Of a stretch of DNA of 64,000 nucleotides, positions 1 to 24,860 are shown piece by piece. The stretch's first letter is position 1. Every line of letters starts with the position of its first letter. Both the position numbers and the translations under genes were made by a program. The notes beneath the pieces were generated by a model. That model worked only from the letters and a program-made list of their open reading frames with translations, had not been told where the DNA came from and made no database searches. This DNA is from an uncultured Gammaproteobacteria bacterium (GTDB taxonomy: Bacteria; Patescibacteriota; Patescibacteriia; VMEV01; CAYQCH01), in NCBI GenBank assembly GCA_964352335.1, contig CAYGRO010000007.1, positions 361-64,360 of the forward strand, read 5' to 3'.

Positions 1-44
1 TAACTCGGTTCGCGGTGAACTGGGTTGACACTGGTCAATCACCC

Positions 45-79
45 GGACCTCGTTCACAGTGAACGAGGTCCTTTTTATT
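45..79 (+). terminator. Rho-independent terminator-like hairpin (13-bp perfect stem, 1-nt loop) + T5
   Basis: ggacctcgttcac-a-gtgaacgaggtcc followed by tttttatt; sits only 3 nt upstream of the SD of the next ORF. Confidence 0.6.
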
Positions 80-89
80 CCTGGAGGGA

Positions 90-536
90 ATGATGACTGA
101 GAAGAACAAGGGGAGCGGCGGCCTCAGTCGTCGTAATCTCCTCAAGTTGGTGCGAGAGTCTGCTCTCGCTCTAGCTGCTGGCTACGTCCTGCAAGGATGT
201 GGTGGCAGTGGCGGAAGTAGTGGTGGTGGAGCTCCGGCTCCGACCGGAAGTCCTACCCCCACACAGAGGATCACGATTGGAGTGGCCACGCGCAAGCAGG
301 GCACCCCGAATACGGATCCCTCGTGGTCGTCGGTTTACGGCAGCCTGTATACCACGGTTGTCGTGAACTCGGTTTCGTTGGGAGATCCTCCCAAGGGTAA
401 GGACCTCAACTTCGGGGCCTTCCAAGCGATCGAGGCTGACAAGGCTGAGGTCAACATCGGCACCACGATCACTTGGCTTGAGGTGGCGCAAGCACCCGGC
501 TCGGTTGTCCTCGTCGAATCCTTTACGGCCGCTTAG
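90..536 (+). CDS. Putative Tat-exported lipoprotein (148 aa) encoded in ~60% GC DNA
   Basis: SD GGAGGG 1 nt before ATG; twin-arginine motif SRRNLLK; lipobox-like LQGC followed by Gly/Ser linker; GC3-rich codons unlike rest of window. Confidence 0.5.
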   Translation: MMTEKNKGSGGLSRRNLLKLVRESALALAAGYVLQGCGGSGGSSGGGAPAPTGSPTPTQRITIGVATRKQGTPNTDPSWSSVYGSLYTTVVVNSVSLGDPPKGKDLNFGAFQAIEADKAEVNIGTTITWLEVAQAPGSVVLVESFTAA

Positions 537-544
537 GAGGTCTC

Positions 545-1084
545 ATGGAAATCACTTTGCAGTTCACCTGTTCCCATGTCACCGACGAGTGTCGTGAGGG
601 GCTCAACCAAGACTCCAATAAGCCGACGCTGGCTTCGTGTCTGGCTTGTATGCCAGTCATGTTCAATAGCTCGTCGGTGCTCGATCTCTTGATCAGCATG
701 GAGCTCTTGCCGGTTACTCCCGGAAGTACGCTCGGACAAGCGCTGTTCGGCGCGACGGTCTTGGGCAAGGACAAGTTCGGACTTGGTCTCGAAGCCTTTC
801 GGACCACTACGGGCATGCTCGGCATGATGGTCAACGGCAAGATCGGAGGGTCGCTGTACATCGTTCGGCGAACGATGGACGGCTTGCTCTTGCTCTTTCC
901 TGGGTCATCGGATCGTTGGGCCGATCGTGTCGTCCACCCCGACGACATCTTCTGGTTCTTCGGTGACACCATCACTGACGAGCGAGTCCCCAAGGGCGAG
1001 AAGACCATTCACGAGCTCCTCCGAGAGGGGATCGGGCACGATGGTTTCGTCCTCAACGTGCGTTCGCTGGCTCGTGTCGGCTAA
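545..1084 (+). CDS. Hypothetical protein (179 aa), high-GC island gene 2
   Basis: SD AGGAGG 5 nt upstream of ATG; + frame has higher GC3 (~80%) than overlapping antisense ORFs; no recognisable family. Confidence 0.4.
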   Translation: MEITLQFTCSHVTDECREGLNQDSNKPTLASCLACMPVMFNSSSVLDLLISMELLPVTPGSTLGQALFGATVLGKDKFGLGLEAFRTTTGMLGMMVNGKIGGSLYIVRRTMDGLLLLFPGSSDRWADRVVHPDDIFWFFGDTITDERVPKGEKTIHELLREGIGHDGFVLNVRSLARVG

Positions 1085-1099
1085 CCACAGCATGGCGCA

Positions 1100-1129
1100 G
1101 GGAGGCACTTCTACCAAGAAGTGCCTCCC
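1100..1129 (+). other. Perfect 12-bp stem / 6-nt loop hairpin at right boundary of high-GC island 1
   Basis: gggaggcacttc-taccaa-gaagtgcctccc; GC content drops to host level immediately downstream; no T-tract. Confidence 0.5.
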
Positions 1130-1201
1130 GCCCAAACATTTACCACTTGATGTAACTAGATCAAAAGTTTGATCCACTAAATCAATTGTTAAATTACCAA
1201 T

Positions 1202-3202
1202 ATGCGTTTTCGTCAACTCGTCTCATCATTTCTCATTGTTGCTTTAGCGGTAACAGGGATGACTATTCCTACATCTGCTGCAGTCGACAGTGCAACAATC
1301 AATTATCTACAAAGCCAAGAGCAAAATAATGCTTGGGTAGTAATGGCACTTAGAGCAGGGGGGCAAACACCTTCTGCCAATCGTCTTTCTACTACACTGA
1401 ATTCTATTACAGATATAGAAAGAACTATTTTAGCTGTTACAGCTGCTAATCAAGACCCAACAAATTTTAATGGAGTGAACTTAATCCAAAAGCTCGATCT
1501 AGAAAGAAAAAATCGACAAATTGGAAGTACTACTCTTATTAATGACGATATCTTTGGTATCTTAGCCTATTATTCTGCAGGGATTCCTTTTACAGATTTA
1601 CGTATTGCGGAAAGTAAAGAATATATTCTCAATCATCAAAATAGTGATGGGGGATGGTCTCATTCTACTTCTTCACCATCAGACTCAAACGATACTGCGA
1701 TGGCAATTAGTGCGTTAATACGAGCTGGTGTTTCTCAAAATGATCCAGCGATTACAAAAGCAGTAAACTATATTAAAACAACACAAAATGATGATGGTGG
1801 TTTTGGTATTTCTCAAAATGCAGACTCAGATAGTGCTTCTACAGCATGGATTATTTCTGCTTTACAAACTGCAGGAAAAACACCGGCTTCTTTTACGAAA
1901 AATAATAAAACACCTTTCATGTTTTTAAATACTGTAAAGCATTCAGATGCTTCGTATAAATGGAAGGCAAATGAAGGTCGTGGAAATGCAACCATGACAG
2001 CCTATGTTGCTATCGCTTTAGCTGGTACCGGATATCCTGTTGCCACTCGAGCTGGTTCAACAACAACTTCAACAAATACAAGTACAAATGTTTCTCGAGT
2101 CGTTAATGATACAACAACAACGAATACACAACGAGTAGCAAATGATACAACGACAACAAATACCGTTCGAGTCGGTTCTCCAACACGAGGAGGGACTCAA
2201 GTAAACTTTAGAATCGAAGGAAGTCAAAATCAAATTTGTGAAGGAACTGCAACAGCGGCAAATCCATTAGATTTAGTAAAAAATGCGGCTTCACAATGTG
2301 GATATAGCTACTTTATCGATCAAACAAGTTTTGGTTCTTATTTGCAACGAGTAAATGCTGACCAAGCATCTGGTTCAAATGGATGGCTGTATTTAGTTAA
2401 CTGGACTCAACCTTCTGTTGCTGCCGATCAATATCAATTAAAAAATGGTGATTATGTCACTTGGTATTTCGGAGAATTCGATTGGAAACCATTAAGAGCA
2501 CAATTAATAAATGCATCTACAGCCCAACAACAAGGAAATGCCATTATTGAAGTTCAGCAATATCAAAGTGGTGCATGGCGTGCCTTTTCTGGAGCAACAG
2601 TGTATTTAACAGGTAGAACTGCTACAACCAATTCTTCTGGTCAAGCAAGTTTTTCTCTTCCAACCGGTTCTTATCAATTTTATGCAGATAGAGCGAATTA
2701 TATTCGTTCAGCGAAAGAAACTTTTAGTGTGAATACCGCTTCAACAAATACAACAACGACAAATACGAATTCAACGAATACAAATTCTTCAACAAGAATT
2801 AGTCGATCAGTTCCACTAGAATCAACAATTATTACAGACCGAGTGTATACGCAGAATACAAATACAACAACGTATAATCCAAATCCACCACAAATGTCAT
2901 TTTCTTTGAATCTAAGTGGTTCTACGACTTCCTTAGGTTTTGGTACACTAAGAGAAGGTCAAACAGCTACACAAAGTGTGACGGTAACAAATACAGGTAC
3001 GACAAGCTTATTAATGACGGCAACAGTAACAGGAGATGCCTTATATACAAATAACTTACGCTTAGATAATCAGTCTTGGGGAAGTTTTTCACGACGTATT
3101 AGTGTAAATAGCGCTTCTCGTATTGATGTATCATTAACTGTTCCTGTAAATTATTCAGACGGATACAAAAGAGGTGACCTCATATTTTGGGCGACTCAGT
3201 AA
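1202..3202 (+). CDS. Secreted multidomain protein: alpha/alpha-toroid (prenyltransferase/terpene-cyclase-like QxxDGGW repeats) + DUF4430-like domain + CarboxypepD_reg-like + beta-sandwich; Thr/Asn-rich linkers
   Basis: N-terminal signal peptide; repeated motifs NSDGGWSHS, QNDDGGFG; segment SNGWLYLVNWTQPSVAADQYQLKNGDYVTWYF homologous to C-terminus of the next gene; TNT-rich low complexity. Confidence 0.6.
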   Translation: MRFRQLVSSFLIVALAVTGMTIPTSAAVDSATINYLQSQEQNNAWVVMALRAGGQTPSANRLSTTLNSITDIERTILAVTAANQDPTNFNGVNLIQKLDLERKNRQIGSTTLINDDIFGILAYYSAGIPFTDLRIAESKEYILNHQNSDGGWSHSTSSPSDSNDTAMAISALIRAGVSQNDPAITKAVNYIKTTQNDDGGFGISQNADSDSASTAWIISALQTAGKTPASFTKNNKTPFMFLNTVKHSDASYKWKANEGRGNATMTAYVAIALAGTGYPVATRAGSTTTSTNTSTNVSRVVNDTTTTNTQRVANDTTTTNTVRVGSPTRGGTQVNFRIEGSQNQICEGTATAANPLDLVKNAASQCGYSYFIDQTSFGSYLQRVNADQASGSNGWLYLVNWTQPSVAADQYQLKNGDYVTWYFGEFDWKPLRAQLINASTAQQQGNAIIEVQQYQSGAWRAFSGATVYLTGRTATTNSSGQASFSLPTGSYQFYADRANYIRSAKETFSVNTASTNTTTTNTNSTNTNSSTRISRSVPLESTIITDRVYTQNTNTTTYNPNPPQMSFSLNLSGSTTSLGFGTLREGQTATQSVTVTNTGTTSLLMTATVTGDALYTNNLRLDNQSWGSFSRRISVNSASRIDVSLTVPVNYSDGYKRGDLIFWATQ

Positions 3203-3207
3203 GAGTT

Positions 3208-3317
3208 TACCTCCCCCTAACCCCCTCCTTATCAAGGAGGGGGAAGTATAATATCATGATGGACCTACGCATTATATTCCTTCCCCTCCTGTCTCAGGAG
3301 GGGATTGAGGGGAGGTA
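3208..3317. repeat. 110-bp MITE/REP-like palindromic element, copy A
   Basis: tacctccccctaaccccctcc...ggaggggattgaggggaggta terminal inverted repeats; second copy at 54757-54866 with ~85-90% identical ends and divergent centre. Confidence 0.6.
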
Positions 3318-3340
3318 TCTAATCGATAAATCAAATACCT

Positions 3341-4356: not shown

Positions 4357-4944
4357 GTGTATAATAAACTCTTCATTAATCAAAAAACTATGAATCAAAG
4401 AAAAGCTCTTGTAGCTCTCTCAGTCCTAGCGGTCATTTTTGCCGTTACTTTCCGTCTAGTCGACCACCCAGCTAATTTTGCTCCTATTGGTGCAATAGCG
4501 TTAATTTCTGCTTATTACCTAACTGCTCGAGGTTCTTGGGCTATTCCTTTAGGTGCAATGCTTTTGAGCGATGCCATCATCGGTTTTTATAGTCTTCCTG
4601 TGATGTTTGCTGTTTATGCAAGTTATTTAGCGATGTGGGGATTAGGACGATGGGCAAAAAATGCAGAAACAAAAACAGCCTTAGTTCCAGCAGTTCTATT
4701 TGGATCAATTACACATTTTGTGCTTACAAACTTTGCTGTATGGGCTTTTACAGGTATGTACGCAAAAACCCTTTCTGGTTTAGCGCTGTCTTATACAATG
4801 GCCATTCCATTTTTTAAATGGACATTAGCTGGAGATCTCTTTTTTGCTGGACTTTTTATTGCTATGATTGAAGGAGCGAGACAAATGGCAAAATCTATTG
4901 TATCAAAAGATGTAGTAGAAAATGTCATCTATCACCAATCTTAG
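4357..4944 (+). CDS. Small polytopic membrane protein, ECF-transporter S-component-like (195 aa)
   Basis: ~5-6 predicted TM helices, size and hydrophobicity profile of ECF S components; start may be the internal ATG at 4390. Confidence 0.4.
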   Translation: MYNKLFINQKTMNQRKALVALSVLAVIFAVTFRLVDHPANFAPIGAIALISAYYLTARGSWAIPLGAMLLSDAIIGFYSLPVMFAVYASYLAMWGLGRWAKNAETKTALVPAVLFGSITHFVLTNFAVWAFTGMYAKTLSGLALSYTMAIPFFKWTLAGDLFFAGLFIAMIEGARQMAKSIVSKDVVENVIYHQS

Positions 4945-13169: not shown

Positions 13170-13230
13170 AATACAATTTGGCAAAAAGAAAAGCGGCTTA
13201 AGGGCCGTTTTTTGCTTTAAAAAAGGGGGA

Positions 13231-13262
13231 GCCCGCAACAGTGTGTCGACTGTGTTGCGGGC
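13231..13262 (-). terminator. Hairpin terminator serving the high-GC island-2 gene (T6 follows on - strand)
   Basis: gcccgcaaca…tgttgcgggc 10-bp arms; on - strand followed by cccccttttttaaagc. Confidence 0.55.
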
Positions 13263-13286: not shown

Positions 13287-14051
13287 TTAGGCAAGCTCGG
13301 CTTCCCGTTGTCGTGGGGTGTCTTCCTCCGGCTCTGAGTTGTTCTCTTCTCGTGCTTTCGGTGGTTCGTTTCGCTTTCGCTCGACGATTTGTTTGAGCGG
13401 TTCACGACCTGAGTCGTTTTCCGTCTCTTCTTCTTCCTCACCTTGAAGTGACCATGAGGCAAGAATCTTGTCGTCATCCATGGCTTCGTCTTCTGCTCGC
13501 TCGATTTCAGCAACTGCTTCGTCGAGGTCAGTGAGAAGCTCATTGAGCTTAACGACGGCCTCTTGGTTGTCGACAGCCATCACGTCACTCGTAGAGATGG
13601 TGCCAAGATCTTTCACAGCAGATTCTAGCGCCATCCGGATCTCCAGAATCTCGTTGATGTCTTGGAGTTGGATGACACGAAGCGCGATGCGTTTGATCTG
13701 GTCGAGGATAAGTGAGAACTTCTTCTCACGTCCCTTGAGCGCCTTCTCTGGGTCGAGGTCGAATGCTTCGAACTCAGGATGGCGACCGCTCTTCTGTTTG
13801 GTGCGTTCAAAGATCTCTTTGAGCTTGTTGAGCAAGGTGCTTAGCTTTTCCTTGCGGATCAGCGTGTCTTGCTCTCGGGCCCCGATGAGACCGAGCTTGA
13901 TACCCAGTCTGGTTCGTTCGAGCCGAGTTCTGATAGCGCCTCGGTACCAGTAGCACGTGCAGGCAATGAATGCCACAGTGCTCATTGCGATAACCTCGGC
14001 ATTAGCCGCGATCCAGTAATCCCATGAGAGGGCAAAAGTCATGTAAGGCAT
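13287..14051 (-). CDS. N-terminally membrane-anchored coiled-coil protein with acidic C-terminal tail (254 aa), high-GC island gene
   Basis: SD AAGGAG 7 nt upstream of ATG at 14051; TM WIAANAEVIAMSTVAFIACTCYWY; charged heptad-like region; EEEEETEND… tail; GC3-rich. Confidence 0.55.
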   Translation of the reverse strand: MPYMTFALSWDYWIAANAEVIAMSTVAFIACTCYWYRGAIRTRLERTRLGIKLGLIGAREQDTLIRKEKLSTLLNKLKEIFERTKQKSGRHPEFEAFDLDPEKALKGREKKFSLILDQIKRIALRVIQLQDINEILEIRMALESAVKDLGTISTSDVMAVDNQEAVVKLNELLTDLDEAVAEIERAEDEAMDDDKILASWSLQGEEEEETENDSGREPLKQIVERKRNEPPKAREENNSEPEEDTPRQREAELA

Positions 14052-14111
14052 GGTAGTCTCCTTTACCCCTCTGGGGTGATTCTTCGTTACACGCGACAAC
14101 TTACTGTTCGG

Positions 14112-19069: not shown

Positions 19070-19390
19070 ATGGCTGTTTTCTTGACGGCCGTAGTAGAAC
19101 TACCGGTCGGAACAAAGCGATATGCCGTCGACCTAACGGTTGACGTCGAAGAATTCGAGTCGGATTGCCCCTGTTATTGGTGCGACGGAATGGGGGCGCG
19201 CCTCGTTCTTATCAGCGCTTTACGCGTCTGGTCCACTCGCAAAAACAGGATTGTCTACCCCCAGCTACTTTATTGGATGGACGCAGTCTATGAAGCTGAG
19301 GAGCGACTTGGTGCTGGACGTCCGGTCTGCATCAACTGTTGGGACAGCGAGCTCTTGCCCTATGTGCGGGAGCGAGCATTGTTCAAATGA
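19070..19390 (+). CDS. Cys-rich small protein (106 aa), high-GC island 4; putative zinc-binding
   Basis: SD AAGGAGG 5 nt upstream; motifs DCPCYWCDG and CINCWD; no family recognised. Confidence 0.45.
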   Translation: MAVFLTAVVELPVGTKRYAVDLTVDVEEFESDCPCYWCDGMGARLVLISALRVWSTRKNRIVYPQLLYWMDAVYEAEERLGAGRPVCINCWDSELLPYVRERALFK

Positions 19391-24784: not shown

Positions 24785-24860
24785 GAGATTTTTGTGGTGG
24801 GCCCGCTGGGATTCGAACCCAGGACCATTAGCTTAAAAGGCTACTGCTCTACCAACTGAG
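24785..24860 (-). tRNA. tRNA-Lys (anticodon UUU), CCA encoded
   Basis: Cloverleaf: acceptor GGGCTCG/CGGGCCC, D-arm GCTC…GAGC, anticodon loop CTTTTAA, T-arm CTGGG TTCGAAT CCCAG. Confidence 0.85.

What the first reader, a model, noticed from the sequence alone, without database searches (positions are those of the whole stretch)
1..1135. Island 1: terminator hairpin directly fused to SD of a Tat-lipoprotein gene, followed by a 179-aa partner; island runs off the left edge
A perfect 13-bp hairpin plus T5 (45-79) ends 3 nt before the SD of ORF 90-536. That ORF has a twin-arginine motif SRRNLLK, a lipobox-like LQGC and a Gly/Ser linker. It is followed 8 nt later by ORF 545-1084 (AGGAGG SD). A perfect 12-bp hairpin (1100-1129) marks the right edge. 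The high-GC DNA starts at position 1, so the island may extend upstream beyond the window. A hairpin that close to an SD suggests either an attenuator or expression platform, or the 3' end of an upstream foreign gene.
Basis: seen in the sequence. Interest (0 to 1): 0.6.

Follow-up and report, generated by a model that had tools for sequence, protein, structure and literature searches.

The report
B12-riboswitch-controlled GC-rich lipoprotein gene pair
The hairpin is very probably the off-switch (terminator) of a vitamin-B12 riboswitch whose sensor lies just left of the window, and the two GC-rich genes behind it are not a foreign island: they are an old, conserved part of a B12-scavenging operon of Parcubacteria (CPR bacteria) that keeps a deviant base composition and ribosome-binding sites its neighbours lack.

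Summary
In detail: hairpin 45-71 plus T-run, SD, ORF1 (93-536), ORF2 (545-1084), 13-bp hairpin 1100-1129, and 58% GC against 37%.

The "foreign island" reading is not supported. Seven related lineages carry the same order: cobalamin riboswitch, hairpin plus U-run, RR-lipoprotein, ORF2 homologue, GC hairpin, transcobalamin-like gene, DUF4430, DUF6580. Window 1-80 is about 90% identical to the expression platform of the closest relative. In six relatives the terminator's 5' arm can instead pair with the 3' strand of the aptamer's last hairpin, as expected of a B12 OFF switch. The window's own aptamer is cut off by the left edge.

ORF2 belongs to a rare family (18 representatives among 1.84 billion proteins). 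It has a confident predicted fold (pLDDT 92) with no PDB match.

The unexplained part: in every lineage, whatever the genome GC, the pair has higher GC3 than its neighbours (0.65/0.73 against about 0.2 here). It also carries SD motifs (15/16 against 12/104 other genes), and its mRNA folds more stably than synonymous shuffles. Synonymous sites between lineages look saturated, so an old transfer scar is unlikely. Two close relatives carry different GC-rich cassettes in the same slot.

The parts
1..44 (+). 3' part of a B12-riboswitch expression platform: the end of a variable hairpin plus the conserved motif GACACTGGTCAA (27-38). The aptamer itself lies left of position 1.
   Evidence: About 90% identical to L010:607-650. 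The motif is conserved in L010, L007, L003, L011 and L015.
45..79 (+). Intrinsic terminator of the riboswitch: 13-bp stem 45-71 and U-tract 72-79.
   Evidence: Hairpins with different sequences occupy the same position in 7 lineages. In relatives the 5' arm can pair alternatively with the P13 3' strand.
83..88 (+). Shine-Dalgarno GGAGGG of ORF1.
   Evidence: ORF1-like genes of the relatives also carry an SD, whereas neighbouring genes do not.
93..536 (+). ORF1, 147 aa: lipoprotein precursor with an RR motif (SRRNLLK), lipobox LQGC, a Gly/Ser/Pro linker and a mature domain of about 95 aa. The mechanical ORF starts at 90.
   Evidence: No Pfam family. GC3 is 0.65.
535..540 (+). Shine-Dalgarno AGGAGG of ORF2, overlapping the ORF1 stop codon (translational coupling).
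   Evidence: The same arrangement is seen in L003, L005, L006, L011 and L013.
545..1084 (+). ORF2, 179 aa. It has no signal peptide and carries Cys9-x-His11 plus Cys32-x-x-Cys35. It belongs to a rare Parcubacteria family with no Pfam model and no PDB fold match.
   Evidence: GC3 is 0.73.
1100..1129 (+). Conserved GC-rich hairpin closing the ORF1-ORF2 unit (13 bp, loop ACCA, no U-tract), followed by GCCCAA. It is probably a 3'-end, stabiliser or partial-terminator element.
   Evidence: Present in 8 lineages. In 9 of 12 consensus pairs at least one sequence has changed on both sides while keeping the pair.
1130..1201 (+). AT-rich spacer with the palindrome GATCAAA..TTTGATC (1159-1174) and the conserved CAATTGTTAAA (1183-1193) just before the next gene, which has no SD.
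1202..3202 (+). 666-aa secreted protein: an alpha-toroid (prenyltransferase-like) domain plus DUF4430, the C-terminal domain of transcobalamins.
   Evidence: PMC4350170.
3341..4348 (+). 335-aa DUF4430 protein.
   Evidence: Syntenic in all relatives.
4357..4944 (+). DUF6580 membrane protein (relatives start at the position equivalent to 4390). Candidate membrane component of the uptake system.
   Evidence: Syntenic in all relatives.

Best explanation
Window 1-1135 is the front of a cobalamin (B12) acquisition operon of a Parcubacteria (CPR) bacterium. It is not a horizontally acquired island.

(1) Riboswitch terminator. The 45-79 hairpin plus U-run is the intrinsic terminator in the expression platform of a B12 riboswitch. 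By homology, the aptamer begins roughly 180-190 nt left of the window. With B12 bound, the aptamer's last hairpin (P13) is held closed. The terminator then forms and transcription stops before the SD. Without B12, the 3' strand of P13 (GAGCGAG...) pairs with the terminator's 5' arm (...CUCGUUC). Transcription reads through, and ORF1 and ORF2 are made. The architecture and the alternative pairing are shown in relatives. For the window itself they are inferred from about 90% identity of positions 1-80 to the closest relative.

(2) The two proteins. ORF1 is a small membrane-anchored lipoprotein with a twin-arginine-type signal. ORF2 is its translationally coupled partner. It has no signal peptide, a CxH...CxxC motif, and a confidently predicted fold without a PDB match. 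The pair is conserved at this position across Parcubacteria. My preferred reading, which is inference only, is that ORF2 folds in the cytoplasm, possibly around a metal ion. It would then be carried out by ORF1's Tat signal (the "hitchhiker" mechanism). Together they would form a surface-anchored accessory of the transcobalamin-like / DUF4430 / DUF6580 uptake system.

(3) The 3' hairpin. Hairpin 1100-1129 marks the 3' end of the ORF1-ORF2 unit. It may be a transcript stabiliser or a partial terminator (inferred).

(4) The composition. The high GC is a lineage-wide, persistent property of this module, and so are the SD motifs and the extra mRNA structure. I think it most likely reflects selection acting on the mRNA, with frequent cassette exchange at this slot contributing. 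The cause is not established.
For: Riboswitch and terminator
- Rfam hits lie directly upstream of the ORF1 homologue. L003 matches RF01482 at 57.6 bits. L011 matches RF01482 at 53.6 bits, against a gathering score of 50. L013 matches RF00174 at 35.3 bits, against 31.5. L015 reaches 47.4 bits, just below the gathering score.
- The leaders of the closest relatives, L010 and L007, align to these riboswitches.
- The platform layout is the same in 7 lineages, and the terminator stems have different sequences.
- In 6 of 6 relatives, a leader truncated after the terminator's 5' arm pairs that arm with the 3' strand of P13.
- Window 1-140 and 1095-1215 are 85-90% identical to L010.

B12 context
- DUF4430 is the C-terminal domain of transcobalamins (PMC4350170).
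- CobA/BtuR and a long ribonucleotide reductase (RNR) gene with a TSCPD domain lie upstream in relatives.

Conservation of the pair
- The same gene order is found in L003, L006, L011, L013 and L015.
- ORF1 is 30-69% identical among these lineages.
- The ORF2 family has 18 representatives at E<=1e-3. Five distant members sit on contigs whose lengths match those carrying homologues of the flanking gene.
- The AF2 model of ORF2 has pLDDT 92.4. Foldseek against the PDB gives a best E-value of 0.46.
- In L007, a remote ORF2 homologue (hhalign probability 82%, E 1e-5) carries its own RR signal, while its lipoprotein partner has a Sec-type signal.

Against a recent transfer
- GC3 of the pair exceeds the flanks in all 7 loci, in genomes from 37% to 56% GC.
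- Identity at 4-fold sites between the window and L003 equals the composition expectation: 0.26 against 0.26 for ORF1, and 0.29 against 0.25 for ORF2.
- No match in the plasmid or phage DNA collections, and no PHROG family.
- SD motifs occur on 15 of 16 cassette genes against 12 of 104 others (Fisher p = 5e-11).
- mRNA folding z-scores against synonymous shuffles average -2.37 for 13 cassette ORFs and -0.63 for 16 controls (Mann-Whitney p = 3e-5).
Against: - The window's own aptamer is not in the data. Every attempt to obtain the upstream sequence failed.
- In the two closest relatives (L010, L007) Rfam finds no cobalamin aptamer, even at E<=10 in L010. Their P4 GGUGAAAAUCC hairpin is replaced, so ligand binding by this variant is not assured.
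- The L007 hairpin has no U-tract.
- The Tat assignment fails the TIGR01409 cut-off. Whether these genomes encode TatA/TatC or Lgt/Lsp could not be checked.
- A subgroup of Parcubacteria lacks the anti-SD motif (PMC9297842). If this genome is one of them, the "SD" motifs need another explanation.
- The synonymous-site tests rest on only 34-38 codons.
- The mRNA-structure excess is modest and cannot by itself account for a 45-point shift in GC3.
Confidence: 0.72

Rival explanations
1. Recent horizontal transfer. The 1.1-kb segment is a foreign island from a GC-rich, SD-using donor such as an actinobacterial host of the episymbiont. It would have inserted next to the B12 genes, and the hairpin would be the donor's terminator.
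For: - There is a sharp GC step (0.58 against 0.37) with GC3 of 0.65-0.73 against about 0.2.
- The cassette genes have SD motifs that the host genes lack.
- Two other GC-rich, SD-led ORFan islets lie in the same window.
- The close relatives L010 and L007 carry different cassettes in the slot.
Against: - Both genes are present, syntenic and similarly diverged in 7 lineages whose flanking gene is 40-50% identical.
- The family was found only in this operon context among 5.8 billion and 1.84 billion proteins.
- There are no mobility genes, flanking direct repeats or adjacent tRNA.
- GC3 of the pair is also above the flanks in GC-rich relatives.
- No residual synonymous similarity remains between lineages.
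- The leader and the signal-peptide region inside the GC-rich zone are conserved with L010.
Confidence: 0.08
2. Recombination hot spot. The slot behind the riboswitch is a site of frequent homologous cassette replacement among co-occurring Parcubacteria, driven by diversifying selection on a surface lipoprotein. GC-biased gene conversion, or import from GC-richer relatives, would then keep GC3 high.
For: - Cassette content differs between close relatives. L010 has a new head domain and no ORF2; L007 has two divergent genes.
- The breakpoints fall at about codon 19 of ORF1 (or at the Gly/Ser linker) and at the 3' hairpin.
- All cassette versions are GC-rich.
- Two assemblies break inside the linker-coding region.
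Against: - As far as I recall, the GC3 shifts reported for biased gene conversion in bacteria are a few percentage points, not about 45. This is from memory and was not checked here.
- Identity to L010 shows no gradient decaying away from the cassette.
- The identities of the ORF1/ORF2 family follow the same order as those of the flanking gene.
- No donor pool was seen.
Confidence: 0.2
3. Selection on the RNA or DNA itself. High GC would be maintained for one or more of three reasons. The riboswitch-controlled transcript may need to be highly structured and long-lived. Its translation may need to depend on an SD in an otherwise SD-less organism. The region may need to be free of AT-rich promoter-like sequences that would bypass B12 control.
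For: - The GC3 excess is independent of the genomic background.
- All 13 cassette ORFs fold more stably than synonymous shuffles, unlike the controls.
- SD motifs are conserved on the cassette genes only.
- A conserved stabiliser-like 3' hairpin closes the unit.
- The downstream gene has its own conserved promoter-like motif and no SD.
Against: - The structure excess is moderate.
- I know of no precedent for selection holding the GC3 of whole genes about 45 points above the genome.
- The downstream B12 genes are not GC-rich.
- The idea was not tested experimentally.
Confidence: 0.35
4. The 45-79 hairpin is only the terminator of the upstream gene (CobA/BtuR or similar) and has no regulatory link to ORF1.
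For: It is a canonical stem plus T-run. The window's upstream sequence is unknown.
Against: - In relatives the upstream gene ends 250-550 nt earlier, and a riboswitch fills the gap.
- The terminator arm is complementary to the P13 3' strand in 6 lineages despite sequence turnover.
Confidence: 0.05
5. Assembly chimera joining a GC-rich organism's contig end to a CPR contig.
For: The segment lies at the window edge, and other assemblies break inside ORF1.
Against: - Two other assemblies have identical junction sequence.
- Five diverged lineages show the same GC-rich-to-AT-rich junction at the same hairpin.
Confidence: 0.01

Closest known systems
Cobalamin riboswitches with an intrinsic-terminator expression platform (Rfam clan CL00101: RF00174 Cobalamin, RF01482 AdoCbl)
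   Same: In relatives the aptamer reaches the Rfam gathering scores. It is followed by a GC hairpin plus U-run just before the SD of the first regulated gene. The last aptamer hairpin (P13) and the terminator share an alternative pairing. The regulated genes are B12-related.
   Different: The window holds only the platform. The closest relatives (L010, L007) have an aptamer variant that Rfam does not detect, in which the GGUGAAAAUCC hairpin is replaced. The first regulated genes belong to uncharacterised families.
Tat "hitchhiker" export (for example E. coli PaoABC, PMC4273604; hydrogenase small and large subunits, from my own knowledge)
   Same: One partner carries an RR signal and the adjacent, translationally coupled partner has none. 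The signal-less partner has a Cys/His motif that suggests folding or cofactor loading in the cytoplasm. In L007, where the ORF2-like protein has its own RR signal, the lipoprotein uses a Sec-type signal.
   Different: The signal carrier here is a tiny lipoprotein. No cofactor is known. Nothing has been tested, and the Tat HMM cut-off is not reached.
Surface B12-capture lipoproteins of Bacteroides (BtuG/BtuH) and vertebrate transcobalamins (from my own knowledge; DUF4430 link from PMC4350170)
   Same: These are riboswitch-linked, surface-exposed accessory proteins in B12 uptake loci. The downstream 666-aa protein combines an alpha-toroid domain with a DUF4430 domain, like transcobalamin.
   Different: ORF1 and ORF2 have no sequence or detected fold similarity to BtuG/BtuH. 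The organism is a monoderm CPR bacterium. B12 binding is unproven.
Genomic islands, recognised by atypical GC
   Same: There is a sharp compositional step and a deviant codon usage and translation signal.
   Different: The segment is conserved and syntenic across deep divergence. It has no mobility genes, no donor, and synonymous sites that look saturated.
Variable surface lipoprotein loci with a conserved leader and signal peptide (for example the Mycoplasma vlp/vsp systems, from my own knowledge)
   Same: A conserved 5' leader and signal peptide precede interchangeable mature domains in close relatives (window against L010 and L007).
   Different: There are no silent cassettes or repeats in the window. 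No invertase or recombinase is present. The variation is between species, not shown within a clone.

Membership tests
Cobalamin riboswitch (Rfam CL00101), whole regulatory element | B12-binding aptamer reaching the Rfam gathering score upstream of the regulated gene | not testable with these tools
   In the window the aptamer would lie left of position 1, and Rfam finds nothing in 1-1300. In relatives it is met in L003 (57.6 bits, gathering score 50), L011 (53.6 bits, gathering score 50) and L013 (35.3 bits, gathering score 31.5). L015 is just below at 47.4 bits. It is not met in the closest relatives L010 and L007, although their leaders align to the others.
Cobalamin riboswitch (Rfam CL00101), whole regulatory element | Expression platform: intrinsic terminator (GC stem plus U-run) between the aptamer and the start codon | tested here: met
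   Stem 45-71 plus TTTTTATT. The position is homologous in 7 lineages. L007 lacks the U-run.
Cobalamin riboswitch (Rfam CL00101), whole regulatory element | Mutually exclusive pairing that links aptamer folding to terminator formation | tested here: inconclusive
   In 6 of 6 relatives the terminator's 5' arm pairs with the 3' strand of P13 when the terminator's 3' arm is absent. The window keeps the complementary CUCGUUC, but its own P13 is not in the data.
Cobalamin riboswitch (Rfam CL00101), whole regulatory element | Regulated genes belong to B12 transport or metabolism | tested here: met
   DUF4430 occurs twice, plus DUF6580, downstream. DUF4430 is the transcobalamin C-terminal domain. CobA/BtuR lies upstream in relatives.
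Tat-exported lipoprotein | Twin-arginine motif (S/T-R-R-x-F-L-K) followed by an uncharged hydrophobic stretch | tested here: met
   SRRNLLK at residues 12-18, followed by 14 uncharged residues before the Cys. An RR motif is conserved in 7 of 8 ORF1-like proteins.
Tat-exported lipoprotein | Match to a curated Tat-signal model (TIGR01409) at its cut-off | tested here: not met
   10.7 bits against a cut-off of 16.7, E = 0.54. TatP and SignalP were not available.
Tat-exported lipoprotein | Lipobox with an invariant Cys at the cleavage site | tested here: met
   LQGC, with Cys36 of the 147-aa form. The Cys is invariant in the three-sequence alignment A2 and is present in every other ORF1-like sequence. 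It is always followed by a Gly/Ser linker.
Tat-exported lipoprotein | The genome encodes TatA/TatC and Lgt/Lsp | not testable with these tools
   Only 64 kb of the genome is available, and it was not scanned systematically.
Horizontally acquired genomic island | Atypical base composition and codon usage | tested here: met
   GC is 0.58 against 0.37. GC3 is 0.65/0.73 against 0.17-0.37 in 50 other ORFs.
Horizontally acquired genomic island | Patchy distribution: absent from the same site in related genomes | tested here: not met
   The pair is present at the same site in the L003, L006, L011, L013 and L015 lineages. L010 and L007 have other GC-rich cassettes there. No empty site was seen.
Horizontally acquired genomic island | Mobility signatures (integrase, flanking direct repeats, tRNA target) or an identifiable donor | tested here: not met
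   None in the ORF list. The only tRNA is at 24795. There are no repeats shared with the rest of the window. There were no plasmid, phage or PHROG hits. Homologues occur only in this operon context.
Tat hitchhiker complex | A physical complex between the signal-bearing and the signal-less partner, with Tat-dependent co-export | not testable with these tools
   Only circumstantial evidence: strict co-occurrence, translational coupling, and the L007 arrangement.

The most novel reading that the evidence does not exclude
The ORF1-ORF2 unit is a compositional and translational enclave that selection has maintained for a very long time. It is GC-rich, strongly structured and SD-led, and it sits inside Parcubacteria genomes whose other genes are AT-rich or of ordinary GC and lack an SD. 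If so, these CPR bacteria would run two modes of gene expression. A small class of genes, including the two other GC-rich, SD-led islets in this window, would use the special mode. Here it would be coupled to a B12 riboswitch variant that current models miss, and to a protein pair with a new fold that is exported together through Tat.
Probability: 0.25. Interest if true: 0.8.

Novelty: new variant of a known kind. Interest (0 to 1): 0.6.

Why it matters
- The finding turns an apparent foreign island into a concrete, testable model of how ultra-small CPR bacteria scavenge B12. These bacteria cannot make the vitamin and appear to depend on it: a TSCPD-type ribonucleotide reductase and BtuR are encoded next door in relatives.
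- It adds two uncharacterised protein families, one with a confident fold that has no PDB match, to the B12 riboswitch regulon. It also points to an aptamer variant that Rfam does not detect.
- It documents a case where atypical GC and SD usage do not indicate recent transfer. The deviation is conserved across deep divergence and across genomes from 37% to 56% GC. That cautions against composition-based island calling. It also raises the question of what holds gene-specific composition and SD-dependent initiation in place in SD-poor lineages.

Tried and rejected
Extending the window leftwards
- Exact-protein look-ups of ORF1 and of P0004 found nothing.
- ORF2 and the 666-aa protein gave only Logan contigs that start inside ORF1.
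- Protein-pattern scans of genome contigs and metagenome contigs found no relatives.
- A leader DNA pattern found only the already known L011 and L015 contigs, and nothing in the metagenomes.

Family assignment
- ORF1 and ORF2 have no Pfam, NCBIfam or PHROG family, and the ORF2 profile has no PDB sequence match.
- The PADLOC library was not used.

Structure
- ORF2 modelled with 3 sequences failed (pLDDT 35). With 18 sequences it succeeded.
- Foldseek against the PDB and BFVD gave nothing.

Other tests
- The Rfam hit to NLPC-P60 RNA on the minus strand at 386-497 (29 bits against a gathering score of 53.7) was rejected as chance.
- Repeats or silent cassettes elsewhere in the window: none found.
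- A gradient of identity around the cassette that would show a recent recombination tract: none found.
- Translational selection for rare codons was rejected, because in GC-rich relatives the pair is shifted towards the common codons, not the rare ones.
- An antisense overlapping gene as the cause of the high GC was considered and set aside. Long antisense ORFs are expected in any GC3-rich gene.
- The literature searches found no prior description of this operon.
Full report
**1. The observation**

The window is 36.8% GC overall. Positions 1 to about 1135 are 51-65% GC in 100-nt windows, and GC falls to 34-39% at about 1130.

The inverted repeat 45-57 / 59-71 is 13 nt and 100% complementary. 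The terminator scan lists it as 12 pairs followed by TTTTTATT. The SD GGAGGG lies at 83-88.

ORF1 is 90-536 as a mechanical ORF. Its homologues begin at the second ATG (MTEK...), so 93-536 (147 aa) is the likelier gene.

ORF2 is 545-1084. Its AGGAGG overlaps the ORF1 stop codon.

The right-hand hairpin 1100-1112 / 1117-1129 is 13 bp, perfect, and has no T-run.

Two independent Logan assemblies (L001, L002) are 100% identical to the window across the GC step at about 1135. The junction is therefore not an assembly artefact. Both contigs start inside the Gly/Ser-linker coding part of ORF1 (window positions 180 and 206).

**2. What surrounds it**

Downstream lie three genes:
- a 666-aa protein with an alpha-toroid (prenyltransferase-like) domain and a DUF4430 domain;
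- a 335-aa DUF4430 protein;
- a DUF6580 membrane protein.

DUF4430 is the C-terminal domain of vertebrate transcobalamins (PMC4350170).

Homologues of the 666-aa protein are numerous, and where a source names them they are from Patescibacteria/Parcubacteria. The host is therefore a CPR bacterium.

**3. Related loci**

ORF1 and ORF2 have very few close homologues. Those that exist sit in the same gene order.
- L003/L004 (Logan and ENA; the same product is also on a JGI contig) and L006 carry ORF1, ORF2, a GC hairpin, and then the transcobalamin-like gene.
- An exhaustive profile search with ORF2 found 18 representatives at E<=1e-3 among 1.84 billion proteins.
- Five of the distant representatives lie on contigs whose lengths equal those carrying homologues of the flanking gene: 346856, 28853, 16227, 4487 and 13832 nt.
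- Fetching three of those contigs (L011, L013, L015) showed one shared gene order.
- That order is CobA/BtuR, a gap, a small lipoprotein, the ORF2 homologue, the transcobalamin-like gene, DUF4430, DUF6580, a PF1765-like gene, an unassigned gene, Band_7 and DUF4012. On L013 the contig ends before the position where CobA/BtuR would lie.
- The small lipoproteins are true ORF1 homologues, 30-48% identical including the mature domain.

The pair is thus an ancestral component of this operon. It spans lineages whose flanking gene is only 40-50% identical to the window's.

**4. The hairpin is a riboswitch terminator**

Rfam finds a cobalamin-class aptamer immediately upstream of the ORF1 homologue in four relatives:

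| Locus | Family | Bits | Gathering score |
|---|---|---|---|
| L003 | RF01482 | 57.6 | 50 |
| L011 | RF01482 | 53.6 | 50 |
| L013 | RF00174 | 35.3 | 31.5 |
| L015 | RF01482 | 47.4 | 50 (not reached) |

All lineages share one layout between the aptamer and the start codon:
1. the last aptamer hairpin (CUUCGYGGA...GAG);
2. a variable hairpin;
3. the motif GACACWGGUCAA;
4. a GC-rich hairpin whose sequence differs in every lineage;
5. a U-rich run (absent in L007);
6. the SD.

Window 1-80 is about 90% identical to this stretch of the closest relative, L010. It includes the motif at 27-38.

I folded each relative's leader truncated just after the terminator's 5' arm. In 6 of 6 cases that arm pairs with the 3' strand of the last aptamer hairpin. 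This is the arrangement expected for an OFF switch. Ligand-stabilised P13 frees the arm to form the terminator. Without ligand, the arm is held in an anti-terminator.

The window's arm keeps the complementary CUCGUUC. The window's own aptamer is outside the data, and all routes to the upstream sequence failed.

One caveat applies. In L010 and L007 Rfam detects no aptamer. Their leaders align to the Rfam-positive ones and keep the GCUGACCCGCAACAGU core and an AAGCCUGAAUACC box. The GGUGAAAAUCC hairpin, however, is replaced. By homology the window probably has this variant.

**5. The proteins**

ORF1-like proteins share four elements:
- an RR motif, in 7 of 8 lineages;
- a hydrophobic stretch;
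- a Cys in a lipobox-like context;
- a Gly/Ser/Pro linker.

The curated Tat-signal model is not reached: 10.7 bits against 16.7. "Tat lipoprotein" is therefore plausible, not shown.

ORF2 has no signal peptide. It carries Cys9-x-His11 and Cys32-x-x-Cys35, which are conserved in most members.
- With an 18-sequence alignment, AlphaFold gives pLDDT 92.4 and pTM 0.87.
- Foldseek finds nothing in the PDB (best E-value 0.46, TM <= 0.24) or in BFVD.
- Pfam and PDB sequence searches are empty.

In L007 the first cassette gene encodes a Sec-type lipoprotein. The second encodes a remote ORF2 homologue (hhalign probability 82%, E 1e-5) that carries its own RR signal.

Taken with the translational coupling of ORF1 and ORF2, this suggests that ORF2 works outside the cell. 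In the window it may be co-exported with ORF1, by analogy with Tat hitchhiking (PMC4273604). This is inference.

**6. The 3' hairpin**

All eight lineages have a strong GC hairpin directly after the cassette, with different sequences and no U-tract. In a crude alignment, 9 of 12 consensus pairs have at least one sequence that changed on both sides while keeping the pair.

It is a selected structure. Most simply it is a 3'-end, stabiliser or partial-terminator element that closes the ORF1-ORF2 unit.

The next gene has no SD. It is preceded by a conserved CAATTGTTAAA 8-10 nt before its ATG. It may therefore have its own promoter.

**7. Not a foreign island, but a persistent anomaly**

GC3 of the pair exceeds its neighbours in every locus:

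| Locus | Cassette GC3 | Neighbours' GC3 |
|---|---|---|
| window | 0.65 / 0.73 | 0.19-0.37 |
| L010 | 0.67 | 0.19-0.35 |
| L007 | 0.78 / 0.89 | 0.24-0.42 |
| L003 | 0.47 / 0.53 | 0.27-0.35 |
| L006 | 0.65 / 0.66 | 0.34 |
| L011 | 0.74 / 0.87 | 0.53-0.58 for the operon genes |
| L013 | 0.76 / 0.70 | 0.60-0.67 |
| L015 | 0.85 / 0.86 | 0.58-0.70 |

Between the window and L003, third positions of conserved 4-fold codons are no more alike than composition predicts: 0.26 against 0.26 for ORF1, and 0.29 against 0.25 for ORF2. At these sites C+G is 0.62-0.71 in the pair and 0.17-0.19 in the flanking gene. The sample is only 34-38 codons. Taken at face value, an old transfer scar should have decayed, so something keeps GC high locally.

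Two further properties travel with the pair:
- **SD motifs.** They precede 15 of 16 cassette genes but only 12 of 104 other genes in these loci. The other genes typically have T at position -1 and no SD (Fisher p = 5e-11). A published survey reports that a subgroup of Parcubacteria lacks the anti-SD motif (PMC9297842).
- **mRNA structure.** All 13 cassette ORFs fold more stably than synonymous-codon shuffles (z from -1.4 to -3.5, mean -2.37). Sixteen control genes average -0.63 (Mann-Whitney p = 3e-5).

There are no mobility genes, repeats or donors.

**8. Cassette turnover**

The two closest relatives carry different GC-rich content in the same slot.
- L010 keeps the leader and the first 18 codons or so, and the linker. 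It then has an unrelated head domain and no ORF2.
- L007 has two divergent genes.
- Against L010, the breakpoints lie at about window 140 (or at the linker near 240) and at about 1095, just before the 3' hairpin.
- Identity to L010 elsewhere is a flat 65-85% without a gradient.

The slot is therefore prone to replacement, which may contribute to the composition. It cannot be the whole story, because the ORF1/ORF2 family is otherwise inherited in step with the flanking gene.

**9. Verdict**

The hairpin is most probably the terminator of a B12 riboswitch. ORF1 and ORF2 are a conserved, B12-regulated lipoprotein/partner pair of a Parcubacteria cobalamin-uptake operon. The foreign-island reading is not supported.

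Four things are new:
- the two protein families;
- an Rfam-negative aptamer variant in the nearest relatives;
- cassette turnover at the slot;
- above all, the conserved GC-rich, SD-bearing, structured character of this unit, whose cause remains open.

Noticed in passing
window 3203-3325; also L010:270-370: A GC-rich nested palindrome lies in the spacer between the 666-aa and 335-aa genes. It has the form TACCTCCCC..[CCCCCTCC ttatca AGGAGGGGG]..AT-rich..[CCCCTCC tgtctc AGGAGGGG]..GGGGAGGTA. The spacer is only 29 nt in L010 and lacks it. A similar two-hairpin element sits between the BtuR stop codon and the riboswitch in L010. It may be a small REP-like or MITE-like element of this lineage.
   Followed up: partly
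window 13287-14099 (-) and 19070-19390 (+): Two further GC-rich islets (GC3 0.60 and 0.59) encode ORFans of 270/254 aa and 106 aa. Neither has a Pfam, NCBIfam or PHROG family. Both are preceded by strong SD motifs (AAGGAG, AAGGAGG), unlike the host genes. The first ends with a canonical terminator at about 13215-13262. Neither shares sequence with island 1.
   Followed up: partly
whole window (about 52 ORFs of 120 aa or more): Host genes almost never have a Shine-Dalgarno motif: 5 of 52, all weak. They usually have ...CT or ...GT directly before the ATG. The same holds in the related loci. This fits the reported absence of the anti-SD motif in a subgroup of Parcubacteria (PMC9297842).
   Followed up: partly
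L010:425-600 and L007:4425-4590 (leaders of the closest relatives): These are B12-riboswitch-like aptamers that Rfam misses, even at E<=10 in L010. The core GCUGACCCGCAACAGU and the AAGCCUGAAUACC box are kept. The conserved GGUGAAAAUCC hairpin is replaced by an unrelated hairpin. This may be an undescribed aptamer variant.
   Followed up: partly
window 1183-1201; L010, L007, L003 and L006 equivalents: A conserved CAATTGTTAAA lies 8-10 nt before the ATG of the transcobalamin-like gene, which has no SD. It looks like an extended -10 box that would give a leaderless or nearly leaderless mRNA.
   Followed up: no
L007:1-1681 and L011:1-1870: Upstream in relatives lies a very long (1466-1477 aa) ribonucleotide reductase gene with each RNR domain hit twice plus a TSCPD domain. 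It may be a B12-dependent class II enzyme interrupted by an intein. It is followed by CobA/BtuR, which would explain the need for B12 uptake.
   Followed up: no
L011:4433-4906 and L011:1954-3562: Another GC-rich gene (GC3 0.73) with an AGGAGG SD sits in a 50%-GC relative. Next to it are two AT-rich genes (GC 0.36-0.39). Compositional mosaicism appears to be general in these genomes.
   Followed up: no
L016/L017 (= contigs CAYQCH010000014.1 and CAZDCG010000002.1): The record titles call these MAGs "uncultured Gammaproteobacteria bacterium". Their gene content (DUF4012, the DUF4430 family, synteny with Parcubacteria MAGs) points to Patescibacteria, so the label is probably wrong.
   Followed up: no
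window 180 and 206 (starts of L001 and L002): Two independent assemblies break inside the Gly/Ser-linker coding stretch of ORF1. This suggests a repeat shared with other lipoprotein genes, or strain variation in linker length.
   Followed up: no
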